Assembly (NCBI GenBank): GCA_945788685.1
Contig: CALZMZ010000009.1
Span: 1-50,393, forward strand
DNA length: 50,393 nt
Reading direction: 5' to 3'
Source: Thermodesulfovibrionia bacterium
Lineage (GTDB): Bacteria > Nitrospirota > Thermodesulfovibrionia > UBA6902
Below are positions 41,723-48,100 of this stretch, piece by piece. The translations under genes were made by a program, and so were the position numbers. The notes under the pieces were generated by a model. It was given only the letters and a program-made list of their open reading frames with translations, searched no databases and was not told the origin of the DNA. The stretch's first letter is position 1; every line of letters begins with the position of its first letter.

Positions 41723-41822
41723 AAGTTAGAAGTAAGAACCAAGAAGTAAGAACTTCTGACTCCTAACTATTTAAATTTCTCACGTTTAATTTCTAACTTC
41801 TCACTTTAAACTTCACACTTCA
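41723..41822. repeat. Inverted heptamer arrays between leuC and leuD
   Basis: AAGTTAG AAGTAAG AACCAAG AAGTAAG, then AACTTCT GACTCCT ... AATTTCT AACTTCT CACTTTA AACTTCA. Confidence 0.75.
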
Positions 41823-43066
41823 TCAGGTAATGCTATTCTGCCCTTTACCGCAGTGGCAGCTGCAACCGCAGGATTGGAGAGATACACTTCACTGCCCGGA
41901 TCTCCCATCCTGCCAACGAAATTTCTGTTAGTCGTGGCTATTGCCTTTTCACCTTTGGCAAGGATACCCATATGGCCGCCAAGGCAGGGTCCGCATGTGG
42001 GCGTTGAAAATACCGCTTCAGCATTTACAAATATCTCTGCCAGACCTTCTTTCATGGCCTGCAAATAAATCTCCTGTGTAGCAGGAATGACTATCATTCT
42101 TGTATTGGGACTGACTTTCTTGCCCTTGATTACTTCAGCAGCTTCACGCATGTCCTCAATCCTGCCGTTTGTGCAGGACCCAACAACAACCTGGTCGATT
42201 GTTACTTCTGCGAGCTCAGATGCCGGTTTTGTATTTGAGGGCAGGTGAGGGCAGGACACTGTCGGCTCAATCCCTGAGCAGTCATATTCCCTGACATCAA
42301 CATATTCAGCATCTTTGTCAGATGTATAAAATGTATATTTTCTTTTTGCCCTCCCTTTAACATACTCTTCAGTAACATCATCAGGCACGATGATCCCGTT
42401 TTTACCGCCTGCCTCAATTGCCATATTGCACATGGTCAATCTGCCTGACATTGGCAGAGAGCTGATGGCTTCACCCTCTATCTCCATGGCCCTGTACAGA
42501 GCTCCGTCAACACCTATATCACCTATGGTGTGGAGGATGAGGTCTTTGCCGCTGACCCATTTATTTAATTTTCCGTAATACACAAACTTCATTGACTCAG
42601 GGACCTTGAACCAGCATTCACCTGTTGCCATTGCCGATGCTACATCAGTTGAACCTACACCGGTTGAAAAGGCCCCGAGAGCACCGTACGTGCATGTATG
42701 ACTGTCAGCGCCAATAACCAGATCACCGGGCAGCACGATACCCTGTTCAGGGAGCAGGGCATGTTCAACTCCCATCCTGCCCACTTCAAAATACAGGCTA
42801 AGATCATGTTCCCTTGAAAATTCCCTCAACATCTTGCACTGTTCAGCTGCCTTGATATCTTTCTGCGGAGCAAAATGGTCAGGAATGAAAGCTATTTTAT
42901 CCTTGTCAAAAACATCCTTAGCGCCGATCTTTTTAAACTCCTTAATCGAGATCGGTGCAGTAATGTCATTGGCAAGAACTACATCCAGTTTTGCATTTAT
43001 AAGCTCTCCGGCTGAGACTCGGTCTTTACCTGAATGCGCAGACAGAATTTTTTCTGTTATGGTCAC
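41813..43066 (-). CDS. leuC: 3-isopropylmalate dehydratase large subunit
   Basis: [30 protein letters not shown]. Confidence 0.95.
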
Positions 43067-43120
43067 GTATCCTCCAGCTTACTGATAACTGATTCAATTT
43101 ATTGAGAAATGTGAATAAAA

Positions 43121-43150
43121 ATATTACCTGAAATTATTGGGAATAGTCAA
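43121..43150 (-). promoter_or_regulatory. Sigma70-like promoter for leuCD
   Basis: TTGACT-N18-TAATAT on the minus strand. Confidence 0.5.
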
Positions 43151-43164
43151 ATAATTTACAGACG

Positions 43165-43204
43165 AACAGGGACACATCCCTTGGGATGTGTCCCTGTTTT
43201 TTTT
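43165..43204. terminator. Perfect 16-bp-arm hairpin after leuA
   Basis: AACAGGGACACATCCC-TT-GGGATGTGTCCCTGTT. The stronger T-tract is on the plus strand. Confidence 0.7.
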
Positions 43205-43210
43205 GTTAAA

Positions 43211-44725
43211 TTATGGATGTTTTTTCCCTGCGGCAAGTTTGTTTAACGCATTAATATAAGCCTTCGCAGATGCGGTAATAATGTCCGTGTCAGCACCATG
43301 TCCACTCACTGATCTGTCAGCCTCTTCAAGAGTACACACCACTTCACCCAAAGCGTCTGTTCCTCCGGTAATGGCCTTGACCTCGTATTTCTGAAGCCTG
43401 CTTTTTGTTTCTGAAATTGATGCTATGGCCATAAACACAGCATCAACAGGGCCGTCTCCCTGCATGGTTTTTTCTATGACCTGATCACCAACTTGAAGTT
43501 TGACCGTGCCTTCTGGTTTTTTGCCCATTCCGGCTGAAACAAACATATCAATTAAACTGTAGGTCTCAGGGACCATGGTAAATTCTTCAGATACAATGGC
43601 CTCAAGGTCCTCATCGAATATTTCCTTTTTCTGGTCTGCAACTTTTTTAAACCTTTCAAATGCGCTGTTAATTTCATCATCGGTAAGTTCATATCCAATC
43701 TCTTTCAGTCTTGTCCTGAACGCATGTCTGCCTGAATGTTTTCCCAGTACAAACCGTGTTTTATGAAGACCGATAGTTTCGGGAGTGATGATTTCATACG
43801 TTGTTTTCTCTTTTAACAGCCCGTCCTGATGAATTCCTGATTCATGGGCAAAGGCGTTTGCACCTACTATTGCCTTATTTGGCTGTACACTCATGCCCGT
43901 TATTTTTGTCACAAGTCTGCTGCTGCGCATTATTTCTTCTGTCTTTATATTTGTAACAGCGTTGAATATGTCTTTCCTTGTCTTTATGGCCATAACCACT
44001 TCTTCCATGGAGCAGTTGCCGGCCCGTTCACCTATACCATTAATTGTACATTCAATCTGCCCTGCACCGTTCAGCACGGCAGAAAGTGAATTGGAAGCAG
44101 CAAGCCCCAGATCGTTATGACAATGGACTGCAATCACGGCCTTATCAATATTCTTCACGCGGTCATGAATTTCCTTAATCATTGCCCCGAATTCACTCGG
44201 GATGATATATCCAACAGTGTCCGGAATATTGACTGTCAAAGCTCCTGCTTCAATCACTGCCTCAACCACATCACACAGATACCCAATTTCTGTGCGGGTG
44301 GCATCCATTGGTGAAAATTCAACGTCATCCACAAAGCTCTTTGCCAGCTGCACCATCTCAACAGACTTCTTCAGGGCTGTTTCACGATCTACCTTAAACT
44401 GATATTTCAGGTGTATATCTGAAGTGGAGTGAAAAGTATGTATCCTTTTCCTGGGGGCATCCTTGACCGACTCCCATGCCCTGTTAATGTCCTCTTCCTT
44501 TGCCCTTGCAAGGCTGCAGATCACCGGGCCTTCAACTTCACCTCCAATGGTTTTGATGGCCTCAAAATCGCCGGGAGAAGCTATGGCAAACCCTGCCTCT
44601 ATTATGTCTACCCCGAGACGTGCAAGCTGTTTGGCAACCTGGAGCTTCTCTCCAGTGTTCATCGATGCTCCGGGTGACTGCTCTCCGTCTCTTAAGGTTG
44701 TATCAAATATTCTGATCGTTCTCAT
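43211..44725 (-). CDS. leuA: 2-isopropylmalate synthase
   Basis: [47 protein letters not shown]. Confidence 0.96.
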
Positions 44726-46262: not shown

Positions 46263-46357
46263 AGACATAAGAGTAAAGACATAAGAGCAAAGACAAAACA
46301 GAAATTCTTTCCTGTTTTTATTAATATCTTTTATCTTTAATCTTTGTTCTTTTGTCT
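46263..46357. repeat. Inverted heptamer arrays between ilvC and psd
   Basis: AGACATA AGAGTAA AGACATA AGAGCAA AGACAAA ACAGAAA ... TATCTTT TATCTTT AATCTTT GTTCTTT TGTCT. Confidence 0.8.
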
Positions 46358-46366
46358 GATAAATTA

Positions 46367-47380
46367 TCATGCTTTGGATTTATCTACCAGTTTGCCTTTT
46401 TTGAGCCACGGCATCATGGACCTCAGTTTGCCACCCACTTTTTCAATAGAATGACGTTCCCCCTTTTTTGTAAGGGCATTAAATACAGGTTTGTTTGCCT
46501 TGCACTCAAGCATCCACTCCCGTGCAAATTCACCGGACTGAATTTCACCAAGGATTTTTTTCATCTCTCTCTTTGTTTTATCAGTAATAACCCTTGGACC
46601 TCTTGTGATATCACCATACTGGGCGGTATTGCTGATGGAGTAACGCATGTTTGATATGCCGCCTTCATAAAGCAGGTCAACGATTAACTTGGTTTCATGC
46701 AGACACTCAAAGTATGCCATCTCCGGCGCATAGCCTGCCTCTACCAGTGTTTCATATCCGGCTGTAATGAGTGAAGTAAGACCTCCGCATAAAACAACCT
46801 GTTCCCCGAAGAGGTCGGTCTCTGTTTCTTCACTGAAAGTGGTCTCGATAATTCCTGCCCTGCCGCCTCCAACAGCAGATGCGTAAGCAAGGGCAATTGC
46901 TTTGGTCTTTTTGGAAGGGTCCTGGTGGATAGCTATAAGACAGGGTACGCCGCTTCCTCTTACATACTCTGCCCTTACAAGGTGTCCCGGACCTTTTGGT
47001 GCAACCATGAATACATTAATATCCGGAGTAGGTACGATCTGGTTGAAATGAATGTTAAAACCATGGGCAAATCCAAGGCTTGTACCTTTTTTCAGGTTTG
47101 GAGCAATCTCATTTCTGTATGTATCGCCCTGGTCTTCATCAGGAAGAAGTATCATAATTACATCAGCCTTTTTTGCAGCTTCAGAAGGGATGTACGTATC
47201 AAAACCTGCTTTTTTCGCCTTGTTAAAACTCCCTCCCTTTCTTACACCAACAATTACATTAACACCGCTGTCCTTTAAATTATTGGCATGAGCATGCCCC
47301 TGGCTTCCGTATCCCATGATGCATACGGTCCTGTTTTTTAAAGTCCCCTTTGTAACATCTTTGTCATAATATATTTTCAT
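46367..47380 (-). CDS. ilvC: Ketol-acid reductoisomerase
   Basis: [27 protein letters not shown]. Confidence 0.97.
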
Positions 47381-47395
47381 TACTTCCTCCTGTTA

Positions 47396-47530
47396 AATTA
47401 GAAATTCCAGTATTCAATTAACAATATCCAAAAAATACTAACTAAAACACAATAAAACATAGTGCATTTAGCATTTTGGATTTTGTTGTTAGAAATTTAT
47501 TTGGTAATTGGTATTTGTTTATTGCAATTT
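47396..47530. repeat. Inverted heptamer arrays between ilvN and ilvC
   Basis: AATTAGA AATTCCA GTATTCA ATTAACA ATATCCA ... TTGGTAA TTGGTAT TTGTTTA TTGCAAT. Confidence 0.65.
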
Positions 47531-48017
47531 ATTTCTTTTTTAGTCCTTCACGTGCTATTGCAACTTTGCCTGTTCTCACAAATTCCTTTATGCCGTAAGG
47601 TTTGATAATTTCGATAAAAGCGGCTATTTTTTTCTCATCTCCGGTAATTTCAACAGTAAAAGTCTGCGTTCCTGAATCGATAATCCTGCCCCGGAAGATC
47701 TCCGCGATTTTTAGAAATTCAGCCTTGTCAGATTTTCTGGGAGAGACCTTAATAAGCACCAGTTCTCTCTCCACATGGTCGATCTCCATGAAATCAACAA
47801 CCTTGATAATATCTATCAGTTTGTTAAGCTGCTTTGTAATCTGCTCAACGATCCTGTCATCACCAGTTGTTATAATCGTCATAAGAGATACCGCAGGATC
47901 TATGGTCTCACCGACTGAAAGACTTTCAATATTAAACCCTCTGCCGCTGAAAAGCCCTGAAACTCTTGAAAGTACCCCGAATTTGTTTTCTACAAGAACT
48001 GATATTGTATGTTTCAT
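47529..48017 (-). CDS. ilvN: Acetolactate synthase small subunit
   Basis: MKHTISVLVEN..GVLSRV.GLFS.RGFNIESL. Start reassigned to 48017 after GGAGGAG. Confidence 0.95.
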   Translation of the reverse strand: MKHTISVLVENKFGVLSRVSGLFSGRGFNIESLSVGETIDPAVSLMTIITTGDDRIVEQITKQLNKLIDIIKVVDFMEIDHVERELVLIKVSPRKSDKAEFLKIAEIFRGRIIDSGTQTFTVEITGDEKKIAAFIEIIKPYGIKEFVRTGKVAIAREGLKKK

Positions 48018-48023
48018 TGCTCC

Positions 48024-48100
48024 TCCGAGATCTGTTATCCGTAATCCATTATCCGTTATTCTGATAAACAACGGTCAACGGACACCGGTCACGGATGCCG
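48024..48100. repeat. Inverted heptamer arrays between ilvB and ilvN
   Basis: TCCGAGA TCTGTTA TCCGTAA TCCATTA TCCGTTA ... ACAACGG TCAACGG ACACCGG TCACGG. Confidence 0.8.

What the first reader, a model, noticed from the sequence alone, without database searches (positions are those of the whole stretch)
41723..48100. Gene junctions filled by inverted pairs of 7-mer tandem arrays, a different unit at each junction
Five junctions of the ilv-psd-leu region each hold a degenerate heptamer array followed by its reverse-complement array. The units are: ilvB/ilvN TCCGTTA, ilvN/ilvC AATTNCA-like, ilvC/psd AGACAAA, psd/pssA AGCTNTA/GCTTACT, and leuC/leuD AAGTNAG. The same units recur at 1667, 2448, 6366-6552 and 19521, and an 8-mer family occurs at 1711, 11603 and 40956-41190. 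Period and inverted geometry are conserved while sequence is not, and the arrays abut stop codons and RBSs. Simple slippage would not explain paired inverted arms. Heptamer repeats are known in cyanobacteria (STRR), but I know of no mechanism for them. Inference: these are either footprints or recombination sites of a gene-cassette system that targets operon junctions, or register-shifting mRNA hairpins that tune operon stoichiometry.
Basis: partly seen in the sequence, partly recalled or inferred. Interest (0 to 1): 0.72.

Follow-up and report, generated by a model that had tools for sequence, protein, structure and literature searches.

The report
Seven-base repeat hairpins between operon genes
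The gaps between genes of this amino-acid/lipid operon really are filled by paired, mirror-image runs of 7-base repeats, but they are a Nitrospirota version of the heptamer repeats long known from cyanobacteria, spread over the whole genome, and not the sites of a gene-cassette system.

Summary
Observation confirmed. Five junctions (ilvB/N, ilvN/C, ilvC/psd, psd/pssA, leuC/D) have strong 7-nt periodicity (0 of 1000 shuffles reach it). Four show inverted arms on DNA pairing alone, the fifth only as an RNA fold with G·U pairs. The leuA/leuC junction has none.

It is a genome-wide trait of this Thermodesulfovibrionia MAG: 409 period-7 arrays against 65 in a shuffle, 73% intergenic, 174 unit types. 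Relatives share it: period 7 scored 99 against 17 in 80 relatives' loci, and AAGTNAG x3 occurs in 80 of 401 Nitrospirota genomes.

New here:
- Arms in one spacer match in unit family (29 against 6.8 expected).
- The purine-rich arm comes first (37:6, replicated 12:3 and 7:1).
- Arrays are about 2-fold rarer in divergent spacers.
- Unit order is not mirrored between arms, and sense and antisense fold equally well.

Best reading: STRR-like heptanucleotide repeats, expanded by slippage independently on both arms of short inverted repeats. They are transcribed as imperfect stop-to-SD hairpins. The cassette idea finds no support.

This scan reported heptamer arrays in this genome before, on other DNA. 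Verdict: new member of a known kind, with modest interest.

The parts
48021..48106 (-). ilvB/ilvN spacer (86 nt). Arrays at 48030-48059 (ATCCGTT x4.3) and 48069-48091 (CAACGGT x3.3) form a hairpin that ends at the ilvN Shine-Dalgarno site.
   Evidence: TRF. Lag-7 z = 5.3, 0/1000 shuffles. RNA fold on the mRNA strand -30.6 kcal/mol, z = -3.2. The Watson-Crick-only test is not significant, 151/300.
47381..47528 (-). ilvN/ilvC spacer (148 nt). A loose A/T-rich heptamer periodicity with inverted arms at 47413-47433 and 47474-47494.
   Evidence: Inverted repeat I2, 21 nt, 81% complementary. Lag-7 z = 4.7, 0/1000. Hairpin test 11/300. RNA fold z only -0.6.
46255..46366 (-). ilvC/psd spacer (112 nt). 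A purine-rich array at 46263-46295 (AGACATA/AGAGCAA) and its complement at 46325-46357 (TATCTTT x4.7). Hairpin arms are 46277-46304 and 46330-46357.
   Evidence: TRF. Lag-7 z = 3.8. 28-nt arms with 22 Watson-Crick pairs, 1/300 shuffles. RNA fold z = -4.25.
45416..45660 (-). psd/pssA junction. A 110-bp tandem duplication (45416-45633, 2.0 copies, 83% identical) carries a heptamer hairpin (AGCTNTA / GCTTACN units) together with the first ~29 nt of pssA. The array at 45617-45640 encodes the last ~7 residues and the stop codon of psd.
   Evidence: TRF. Inverted repeats I1 and I7. Lag-7 z = 6.9. Hairpin tests 0/300 and 4/300. psd C-terminus. The mini-[13 protein letters not shown] was read from the sequence.
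41703..41825 (-). leuC/leuD spacer (110 nt). AAGTNAG array at 41723-41752 and CTNACTT array at 41773-41821. The latter overlaps the leuC stop at 41813-41815. The hairpin ends just before the leuD Shine-Dalgarno site.
   Evidence: TRF. Lag-7 z = 5.4, 0/1000. 16-nt arms with 14 pairs, mismatches at the N position, 3/300.
6366..6560 (-). A second AAGTNAA / CTNACTT inverted pair between two minus-strand genes, with a loop of about 90 nt. It has the same architecture as the leuC/leuD junction.
   Evidence: TRF (6380-6397). Sequence read.
1666..1703 (+). A single AAATTAC-family array that starts 6 nt after the stop of the ORF 635-1660.
   Evidence: TRF (period 14, 2.7 copies). Sequence.
11604..11641 (+). 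An octamer array (AACCCTGG x4.8) that fills the spacer between two plus-strand ORFs.
   Evidence: TRF. Sequence. The family dominates the period-8 arrays genome-wide.
40954..41189 (.). An inverted pair of octamer arrays (TTAAGGAT x2.6 at 40954-40974, CCTAGAAT x3.4 at 41163-41189). They flank about 190 nt that hold two small GC-rich hairpins, downstream of leuD.
   Evidence: TRF. Sequence.

Best explanation
These are STRR-like heptanucleotide simple-sequence repeats. They are a lineage-wide genomic trait of many Nitrospirota, here a Thermodesulfovibrionia MAG, and not something special to the ilv-leu operon.

Inferred mechanism: a short intergenic inverted repeat provides two complementary arms. 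Each arm is then amplified on its own in 7-nt steps by replication slippage and decays by point mutation, preferentially at one 'wobble' position of the unit.

The result is two arrays of the same unit family in opposite orientation, usually with the purine-rich arm first. The arrays are tolerated mainly downstream of genes, so they pile up in intercistronic and convergent spacers. They start at or inside the upstream stop codon and end next to the downstream Shine-Dalgarno site.

Because they lie inside the operon they must be transcribed. They can then fold into long imperfect hairpins with 4-6 bp helices broken every 7 nt.

Any effect on expression is inferred and probably modest. It would be a decay barrier or segmental mRNA stability, as proposed for cyanobacterial STRR hairpins.

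Shown here: anatomy, statistics, distribution and turnover. Inferred: slippage, the seed inverted repeat and the RNA consequence.
For: Genome-wide excess:
- Period-7 arrays number 409 against 65 in an order-3 Markov shuffle. Period 14 gives 135 against 16 and period 21 gives 41 against 1.
- 73% are intergenic, while crude coding covers 83% of the genome. There are 174 canonical units.
- 120 of 1434 spacers are period-7-rich, against 0.2% of coding controls.

Slippage signature: perfect runs of up to 12-15 units occur in one arm only, for example GAGGTAA x12 against 4.6. Arm copy numbers are barely correlated (rho 0.22, p = 0.12).

The arms are a true inverted repeat:
- 29 of 119 neighbouring array pairs have reverse-complement units within 1 mismatch. 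Shuffling partners gives a mean of 6.8 and a maximum of 14.
- 82 of 355 arrays have a reverse-complement dimer within 150 nt. The reversed-unit control gives 5 and the complement control 12.

The arms evolve independently. Identity between arms is 0.824 with the true unit order and 0.830 with the order shuffled (32 pairs).

There is no RNA-strand signal. The sense strand folds better in 65 spacers and worse in 64, out of 134. G·U pairs are 378/3004 on the sense strand and 359/2996 on the antisense strand.

Lineage trait:
- In 80 relatives' loci period 7 scores 99 against 17, and 49 of 80 loci hold at least one array.
- AAGTNAG x3 occurs in 80 of 401 Nitrospirota genomes, with almost no hits for the reversed control.
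- A 546-kb sample of G065 has 222 arrays per Mb.

Turnover against the congener G001: of 195 orthologous spacers, 14 are array-rich in both genomes, 14 only in G000 and 6 only in G001 (odds ratio 27). A unit family is shared in 6 of the 14.

Precedent: a passage in PMC2670836 says 7-bp STRR hairpins occur between hupS and hupL in several cyanobacteria, with function unknown.
Against: - Pure neutral slippage does not predict the strong polarity: purine-rich arm first in 37 pairs against 6 in G000, 12 against 3 in relatives' loci and 7 against 1 in G065.
- It also does not predict the roughly 2-fold depletion in divergent spacers: 0.30 clusters per kb against 0.72 co-directional and 0.81 convergent. 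The depletion stays at about 0.38 against 0.86 after reassigning arrays swallowed by over-long ORF calls.
- It does not explain why the period is 7, nor why a few unit families recur at about 20 loci each and across classes.
- Mismatches concentrate at one position of the unit (53% against 40% expected). That position sits in a T-N-A context in 43 of 129 arrays against 13.7% expected. This hints at a constraint I cannot name.
- The seed inverted repeat is inferred, not observed.
- Gene calls were crude ORF calls, so start-side distances are approximate.
Confidence: 0.6

Rival explanations
1. Selected RNA elements. The heptamer hairpins are functional parts of the polycistronic mRNA. They could be decay barriers that protect the upstream cistron from 3'-5' exonucleases, weak attenuators or pause sites that work in both directions, or translational-coupling devices. 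On this reading they set the relative output of neighbouring genes.
For: - They lie between stop codon and Shine-Dalgarno site.
- They are enriched in co-directional and convergent spacers and depleted in divergent ones.
- The purine-then-pyrimidine polarity means a transcript entering from either side ends the hairpin on a U/C-rich arm, which is the polarity of intrinsic terminators.
- Arrays persist at orthologous junctions far more often than chance (odds ratio 27).
- The same roles were proposed for cyanobacterial STRR hairpins (passage in PMC2670836).
Against: - There is no sense-strand advantage in folding or in G·U use: 65 against 64 spacers, Wilcoxon p = 0.62.
- Unit variants are not compensated between arms, and arm lengths are unbalanced.
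- Only about 23% of arrays have a detectable inverted partner.
- None of the five junction hairpins meets a simple terminator pattern.
- In the minimum-free-energy folds the Shine-Dalgarno sites lie mostly outside the stems.
- Array-bearing spacers fold no better per nucleotide than other spacers (-0.144 against -0.191 kcal/mol per nt).
- Many junctions have arrays in one congener only.
Confidence: 0.25
2. Protein-binding arrays. Each heptamer is one binding site for a single-strand nucleic-acid-binding protein (OB-fold, cold-shock or S1-like) or for a DNA-binding factor. The arrays would be cooperative binding platforms, and the inverted arrangement reflects binding on both strands.
For: - The strict 7-nt register has six conserved positions and one free position per unit.
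- A few unit families recur across loci and across classes of the phylum.
- MacGregor 2015 (PMC4679880; abstract and passages read) proposes S1, Csp or CsrA binding for TAACTGA repeats and notes that CspB binds one protein per heptamer.
Against: - There are 174 different units in one genome.
- The apparent common consensus RTNABRR disappears once duplicate and near-duplicate units are removed: z = 17 falls to 3.0 and then to -0.6.
- Different units occupy the same junction in congeners.
- No candidate protein was tested.
Confidence: 0.1
3. Gene-cassette recombination sites. The inverted arrays are attC-like sites or footprints of a system that inserts or exchanges genes at operon junctions.
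For: - The sites are imperfect inverted repeats at gene boundaries.
- A 110-bp tandem duplication carries a hairpin plus the pssA start.
- Sub-threshold integron-integrase-like fragments exist elsewhere in the genome, with a best score of 204.7 bits over half the model at a contig end.
Against: - The flanked genes are core biosynthetic genes in conserved order in the 12 relatives examined, with no cargo between arms.
- psd is orthologous to its relatives.
- Inserts at these junctions in more distant relatives are ordinary genes without bracketing inverted arrays.
- No integrase reaches the family cut-off, and none lies in the window.
- Loops are short, with a median of 37 nt between arms.
- Arrays occur at more than 300 loci, including single arms and sites inside ORFs.
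Confidence: 0.02

Closest known systems
STRR (short tandemly repeated repetitive) heptanucleotide sequences of heterocystous cyanobacteria
   Same: Both have 7-nt units in tandem, many dispersed intergenic copies and several unit families per genome. Both have hairpin potential in intercistronic spacers. [quoted passage not shown] From recall only: Mazel et al. 1990 defined STRR. Vioque 1997 reported STRR inside the RNase P RNA gene, of which only the title was seen in reference lists.
   Different: The phylum differs: Nitrospirota, class Thermodesulfovibrionia. The unit sequences are different and far more numerous, with 174 canonical units. The purine-first polarity, the depletion in divergent spacers and the independence of the arms were measured here. 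I found no statement of them in the passages I read. I could not test them in a cyanobacterial chromosome. One 50-kb stretch of a Nostoc plasmid held only 5 period-7 arrays.
TAACTGA direct repeats of marine Beggiatoaceae, some Cyanobacteria and Bacteroidetes (MacGregor 2015, PMC4679880; abstract and passages read)
   Same: Both are intergenic heptamer direct repeats next to gene boundaries, with a patchy phylogenetic distribution, no known mechanism and a post-transcriptional role suspected.
   Different: In that paper a single unit dominates, related heptamers are rarely repeated, arrays sit a few nucleotides upstream of start codons in forward orientation, and only one inverted repeat was found among 170 sets. 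Here there are many units, about a quarter of arrays have inverted partners, and arrays associate with gene 3' ends. The window holds one TTACTGA-TAACTGA doublet at 43079-43092, in reverse orientation upstream of leuC.
REP / BIME / REPIN intergenic palindromes of proteobacteria
   Same: Both are hairpin-forming repeats in intercistronic and 3' spacers. Both are present or absent at orthologous junctions in relatives. REPs are known to act as mRNA decay barriers (recalled). In G001 some orthologous junctions carry GC-rich palindromic elements where G000 has heptamer arrays.
   Different: REPs are copies of one conserved palindrome mobilised by a RAYT transposase. They are not tandem 7-nt arrays, and they have no unit diversity or register periodicity.
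Integron attC sites and gene cassettes
   Same: Both are imperfect inverted repeats at gene boundaries.
   Different: There is no adjacent integrase and no cassette variability, the flanked genes are conserved core genes, and the arms are tandem arrays.

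Membership tests
STRR-type heptanucleotide repeats | Unit of 7 nt repeated head to tail | tested here: met
   TRF. Lag-7 autocorrelation z = 3.8-6.9 in five junctions.
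STRR-type heptanucleotide repeats | Many dispersed, mostly intergenic copies in one genome, with several unit families | tested here: met
   409 arrays against 65 in a shuffle. 73% are intergenic and there are 174 canonical units.
STRR-type heptanucleotide repeats | Hairpin potential of arrays in intercistronic spacers, as at hupS-hupL | tested here: met
   for the window. Genome-wide, 82 of 355 arrays have a reverse-complement partner against 5 for the reversed control.
STRR-type heptanucleotide repeats | Occurrence in heterocystous cyanobacteria with the STRR1-3 unit sequences | tested here: not met
   The organism is Nitrospirota, Thermodesulfovibrionia. The STRR1-3 units are only recalled and were not compared formally. 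On taxon and unit sequence this is a relative of the kind, not a member of the original set.
TAACTGA repeat system (MacGregor 2015) | One dominant unit, TAACTGA, with related heptamers rarely repeated | tested here: not met
   The top units are AAATTAC (25), AAGAAGT (23) and AATTACG (11). TAACTGA is not among the top 40.
TAACTGA repeat system (MacGregor 2015) | Arrays in forward orientation within a few nucleotides upstream of start codons | tested here: not met
   Purine-rich arrays start a median of 4 nt after the upstream stop. Arrays are as dense in convergent spacers as in co-directional ones.
Integron attC / gene cassettes | Integron integrase (IntI) present and adjacent | tested here: not met
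   TIGR02249 finds no match over its cut-off in the 84%-complete genome and none in the window. There are sub-threshold fragments on C137 and C8.
Integron attC / gene cassettes | Variable cargo genes between sites in relatives | tested here: not met
   Gene order is conserved in the 12 relatives, with spacers of 9-231 nt at the junctions that are periodic in the window. Inserts in 80 further loci are not bracketed by inverted arrays.
Intrinsic (Rho-independent) terminators | GC-rich stem with a short loop followed by a U tract | tested here: not met
   None of the 9 terminator-like sites in 40800-50393 lies in the five heptamer junctions.
REP / REPIN | One conserved palindromic sequence family, with a RAYT transposase | tested here: inconclusive
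   The arms differ in sequence from junction to junction, which argues against membership. RAYT was not searched for.
Known RNA families (Rfam) | A match at the gathering score | tested here: not met
   There are 0 matches at gathering score in the whole window. Only two chance-level hits (E = 0.3-0.9) fall at 43110-43228.

The most novel reading that the evidence does not exclude
The heptamer hairpins could be a selected, strand-symmetric 'punctuation' element of gene 3' ends. Three features support this: family-matched arms, a fixed purine-then-pyrimidine polarity seen in three independent samples of the phylum, and avoidance of divergent promoter spacers. Such an element would act on transcripts entering from either side, as a bidirectional attenuator, pause site or decay barrier. 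It might be generated by an unknown 7-nt-step repeat-making activity shared, perhaps horizontally, with cyanobacteria and Beggiatoaceae. If so, the 35-year-old question of what STRRs do would gain a concrete, testable rule: invert the polarity and function is lost.
Probability: 0.15. Interest if true: 0.7.

Novelty: new member of a known kind. Interest (0 to 1): 0.36.

Why it matters
Heptanucleotide repeats have been known in cyanobacteria since 1990 (recalled) and in Beggiatoaceae since 2015, without a mechanism or a function.

This work shows that a third, unrelated and largely uncultured lineage carries them at 150-220 arrays per Mb. The lineage is Thermodesulfovibrionia and other Nitrospirota.

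It also gives quantitative rules: family-matched inverted arms, purine-first polarity, association with gene 3' ends, independent arm evolution and no RNA-strand bias. These rules constrain any model and can be tested directly in cyanobacteria, where genetics exists.

For annotation the practical message is that these arrays are ordinary for this lineage. They can supply stop codons and C-terminal tails, as in psd and leuC. They should not be read as mobile-element scars.

Tried and rejected
1. A common motif for all units. Expectation-maximisation over all rotations and strands gave RTNABRR with 4.58 bits against a null of 3.47 (z = 17). After removing duplicate units z fell to 3.0, and after collapsing units within 1 mismatch to -0.6. 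The signal is family redundancy, so it was rejected.

2. The 'stop codons in all frames face incoming ribosomes' idea as the cause of polarity. It holds for purine-first pairs (2.23 against 1.05 closed frames) but reverses in the 6 pyrimidine-first pairs and the 10 neutral pairs. It therefore only tracks purine content.

3. Xenologous replacement of psd between the hairpins. An apparent 52% identity to G001 was my own frame error. With the right start, identity is 84% and psd is simply the faster-evolving gene in all relatives.

4. Mirror-image inverted duplication or templated correction between arms. There is no mirrored unit order.

5. RNA-level selection seen as a sense-strand G·U excess. 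None was found.

6. Sequencing runs. None was listed for window 41200-49900 and no RNA holder was listed, so expression and end-mapping could not be examined.

7. A polarity test in cyanobacteria. One 50-kb stretch of Nostoc PCC 7120 plasmid alpha held only 5 period-7 arrays. That is too few, so the test was abandoned.

8. Literature. A full-text search combining heptamer-repeat terms with Nitrospirae or Thermodesulfovibrio listed 15 of 221 hits, none of which held any of the repeat terms. A search for small dispersed repeats with heptamers found nothing useful. Elhai 2008 (by DOI) and Vioque 1997 (PMC146911) are not held.

9. Spacer conservation. Array-bearing orthologous spacers are only slightly less alignable than the others (median identity 0.52 against 0.59, p = 0.03). 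At this divergence 'turnover' of sequence is therefore not special to arrays.

10. Terminator reading of the junction hairpins. There are no pattern matches.

Full report
WHAT IS THERE

The region encodes the following genes on the minus strand:
- ilvB, 48107-49840
- ilvN, 47529-48020
- ilvC, 46367-47380
- psd, 45619-46254
- pssA, 44722-45444
- leuA, 43211-44725
- leuC, 41813-43066
- leuD, 41208-41702

Each protein scores above the curated NCBIfam cut-off of at least one model of that name. Titles of the nearest public records place the organism in Nitrospirota, class Thermodesulfovibrionia. The nearest genome is a complete MAG (G001) whose pssA is 95% identical. The window is contig C9 of a 2.6-Mb, 192-contig draft with 41.8% G+C.

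CHECKING THE OBSERVATION

Tandem Repeats Finder reports period-7, -14 or -21 arrays in the named junctions.

Lag-7 identity is 0.50-0.53 in the five junctions ilvB/N, ilvN/C, ilvC/psd, psd/pssA and leuC/D. None of 1000 shuffles reaches it. These shuffles preserve dinucleotides and shuffle each half of the spacer separately. At most 1 of 1000 reaches it when the shuffles may take their best lag from 4 to 12. The sixth junction, leuA/leuC, is not periodic (z = 0.7).

The inverted relation was tested with an ungapped Watson-Crick score against arm-wise shuffles. The number of shuffles out of 300 that reach the observed score is:
- 0 and 4 for the two psd/pssA copies
- 1 for ilvC/psd
- 3 for leuC/D
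- 11 for ilvN/C
- 151 for ilvB/N

The ilvB/N hairpin depends on G·U pairs on the mRNA strand (RNA fold -30.6 kcal/mol, z = -3.2).

The octamer family is real and dominates the genome's period-8 arrays. No Rfam family matches at gathering score anywhere in the window.

IT IS GENOME-WIDE AND LINEAGE-WIDE

The genome holds 409 period-7 arrays against 65 in an order-3 Markov shuffle. Period 14 gives 135 against 16, period 21 gives 41 against 1, and period 8 gives 158 against 83. Of the period-7 arrays 73% lie in the roughly 17% of the genome that my crude ORF calling leaves intergenic. There are 174 canonical units, led by AAATTAC (25) and AAGTAAG (23). 120 of 1434 spacers of at least 40 nt are period-7-rich, against 0.2% of length-matched coding controls.

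In 80 ilv-leu loci of other Thermodesulfovibrionia (706 kb), period 7 scores 99 against 17 in shuffles. 49 of the 80 loci hold at least one array.

The pattern AAGTNAG x3 occurs in 80 of 401 sampled Nitrospirota genomes, with almost no hits for the reversed control. It is patchy by family, for example 27/64, 7/11 and 13/35 against 2/75, 0/28 and 0/14.

Two earlier notes of this scan describe heptamer arrays elsewhere in this same genome and reach the same classification.

ANATOMY RULES FOUND HERE

(a) Matched arms.
- Of 119 neighbouring array pairs, 29 have reverse-complement units within one mismatch. Only 5 have direct units that close. Shuffling partners gives a mean of 6.8 and a maximum of 14.
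- With a more sensitive test, 82 of 355 arrays have a reverse-complement dimer within 150 nt. The reversed control gives 5, the complement control 12 and the direct unit 35.
- Inverted pairing is therefore real but concerns about a quarter of arrays.

(b) Polarity. The purine-rich arm comes first, on either strand.
- G000: 37 pairs against 6, with 10 neutral.
- The 80 relatives' loci: 12 against 3, with 2 neutral. Some of these arrays may be orthologous to one another.
- A 546-kb sample of G065, a genome of another class: 7 against 1, with 1 neutral. I chose G065 for its many AAGTNAG hits, not for polarity.
- G001: only 3 pairs, split 1:1:1.

(c) Location.
- Array clusters per kb of spacer are 0.72 in co-directional, 0.81 in convergent and 0.30 in divergent spacers.
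- After reassigning 39 clusters that over-long ORF calls had swallowed, the contrast remains at about 0.86 against 0.38.
- G065 gives 1.59, 0.62 and 0.26.
- In co-directional spacers purine-rich arrays start a median of 4 nt after the upstream stop. Pyrimidine-rich arrays end a median of 20 nt before the called start.
- In the window, arrays supply the last ~7 codons and the stop of psd, and overlap the leuC stop.

(d) One wobble position. Within arrays 53% of mismatches fall on the most variable position, against 40% expected (p = 4e-14). That position is flanked T-N-A in 43 of 129 arrays against 13.7% expected. Stems are therefore 4-6 bp helices interrupted every 7 nt.

WHAT ARGUES FOR A DNA-LEVEL ORIGIN WITHOUT STRONG RNA SELECTION

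- Unit order is not mirrored between arms: identity is 0.824 with the true order and 0.830 with the order shuffled, over 32 pairs.
- Copy numbers of the two arms are barely correlated (rho 0.22). Large perfect expansions are one-armed.
- In 134 co-directional spacers the sense strand folds better in 65 and worse in 64, and G·U use is equal.
- Array spacers fold no better per nucleotide than other spacers.
- None of the five junction hairpins matches a simple terminator pattern.
- In the minimum-free-energy folds the Shine-Dalgarno sites lie mostly outside the stems.

The simplest model is a short ancestral inverted repeat whose two arms were each amplified in 7-nt steps by slippage.

EVOLUTION

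In the congener G001 the four comparable junctions all carry heptamer hairpins built from other units. More distant relatives have other units again, or short plain spacers.

The genome-wide comparison used 800 kb of G001, where orthologues have a median amino-acid identity of 86%. Of 195 orthologous spacers, 14 are array-rich in both genomes, 14 only in G000 and 6 only in G001 (odds ratio 27, p = 1e-9). A unit family is shared in 6 of the 14. G001 carries about 61 arrays per Mb against 157 in G000. Some junctions hold GC-rich palindromic elements in G001 where G000 has arrays.

At this divergence spacers in general are barely alignable: median identity is 0.59, and 0.52 for array spacers. Positions therefore persist while sequences and families change.

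THE CASSETTE READING

- Gene order is conserved in the 12 relatives examined, and no gene lies between arms.
- The few large inserts at these junctions in 80 further loci are ordinary genes (MsrB-like, patatin-like, radical-SAM-like, sensor kinases). Judged by eye from their ends, they are not bracketed by inverted arrays.
- psd is orthologous.
- No integron integrase passes its cut-off.

I consider this reading refuted for practical purposes.

COMPARISON WITH WHAT IS KNOWN

A passage in PMC2670836 states that 7-bp STRR repeats form hairpins between hupS and hupL in several filamentous cyanobacteria. It says their function is unknown and that transcript stability or translational coupling have been proposed.

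MacGregor 2015 describes TAACTGA repeats in Beggiatoaceae, Cyanobacteria and Bacteroidetes (abstract and passages read). Those show a single dominant unit placed just upstream of start codons, with one inverted case among 170 sets.

A 2022 preprint on Nostoc recF/O/R speculates on regulatory roles (passages read).

A full-text search that combined heptamer-repeat terms with Nitrospirae or Thermodesulfovibrio listed no paper holding any of the repeat terms. It listed 15 of 221 hits. This is not proof that the case is unpublished, because subscription journals are not searched.

The present case is therefore a new member of a known kind, in a new phylum.

WHAT REMAINS UNEXPLAINED

- Why the period is 7.
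- Why the purine-rich arm comes first.
- Why a handful of unit families recur at about 20 loci each and across classes.
- Why one T-N-A position is free.

The polarity and the avoidance of divergent spacers are what keep a functional reading alive, as a bidirectional attenuator or decay barrier. I give that reading 0.25, the slippage-on-a-seed-hairpin reading 0.6, protein-binding platforms 0.1 and cassette sites 0.02.

No sequencing run was listed for this DNA, so none of the RNA predictions could be tested.

CAVEATS

- Gene calls are my own longest-ORF heuristic, so stops are reliable but starts are not.
- Thresholds were chosen before looking at the results but are arbitrary: a period-7 excess above 0.15, unit distance of 2 or less, and a purine difference of 0.1.
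- Related genomes are not independent samples.

Noticed in passing
window 45416-45633: A 110-bp tandem duplication (2.0 copies, 83% identical) contains a heptamer hairpin and the first ~29 nt of pssA. The upstream copy of the pssA start would encode a 10-codon mini-ORF ([10 protein letters not shown]) ahead of the real pssA.
   Followed up: partly
window 43164-43199: A perfect 16-bp GC-rich hairpin sits between leuA and leuC. It is followed by a T run on the plus strand only, which is antisense to the operon. On the mRNA strand it is preceded by an A run and has no U tract. It looks like a terminator for antisense transcription, or a stabiliser, and not like an operon terminator.
   Followed up: partly
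window 43079-43092: A TTACTGA-TAACTGA doublet, the Beggiatoaceae unit, lies directly next to the leuC Shine-Dalgarno site. It is in reverse orientation relative to leuC.
   Followed up: no
window 40954-41189: Inverted octamer arrays of the GAAYCCYN family flank two small GC-rich hairpins of the type ATTCCCG...CGGGAAT and ATTCCGGC...GCCGGAAT. Similar GGGAATGAC-type hairpins sit inside or beside heptamer hairpins on other contigs (C2, C17, C23).
   Followed up: no
window 2448-2474: A heptamer array (CGTGTTC x3.9) lies inside the ORF 1712-2755 (minus strand). Genome-wide, 61 array clusters fall in the interior of called ORFs.
   Followed up: no
G000 C137:8830-9318 and C8:43295-44654: Fragments resemble an integron-type integrase but score below the family cut-off. 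One is cut by a contig end (204.7 bits over the C-terminal half of the model). The other is in pieces, with heptamer arrays (AGCTTTT x5, GCTTACA x4.7) lying between the pieces.
   Followed up: partly
L021 (G001) 10243-16001: In the congener, leuA is followed by AT-rich DNA with unrelated and partly broken-looking ORFs in place of leuC-leuD. Synteny breaks exactly at the one junction of the window that has no heptamers.
   Followed up: partly
G001 spacers orthologous to G000 C51:6400-6482 and C113:6007-6110: G001 carries GC-rich palindromic (REP-like) elements at junctions where G000 carries heptamer hairpins. The same spacers therefore accept different repeat classes.
   Followed up: no
window 39115-40842: A multihaem c-type cytochrome lies downstream of leuD. 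It has four doubled-CXXCH domains and DmsE/decahaem-like matches below their cut-offs.
   Followed up: no
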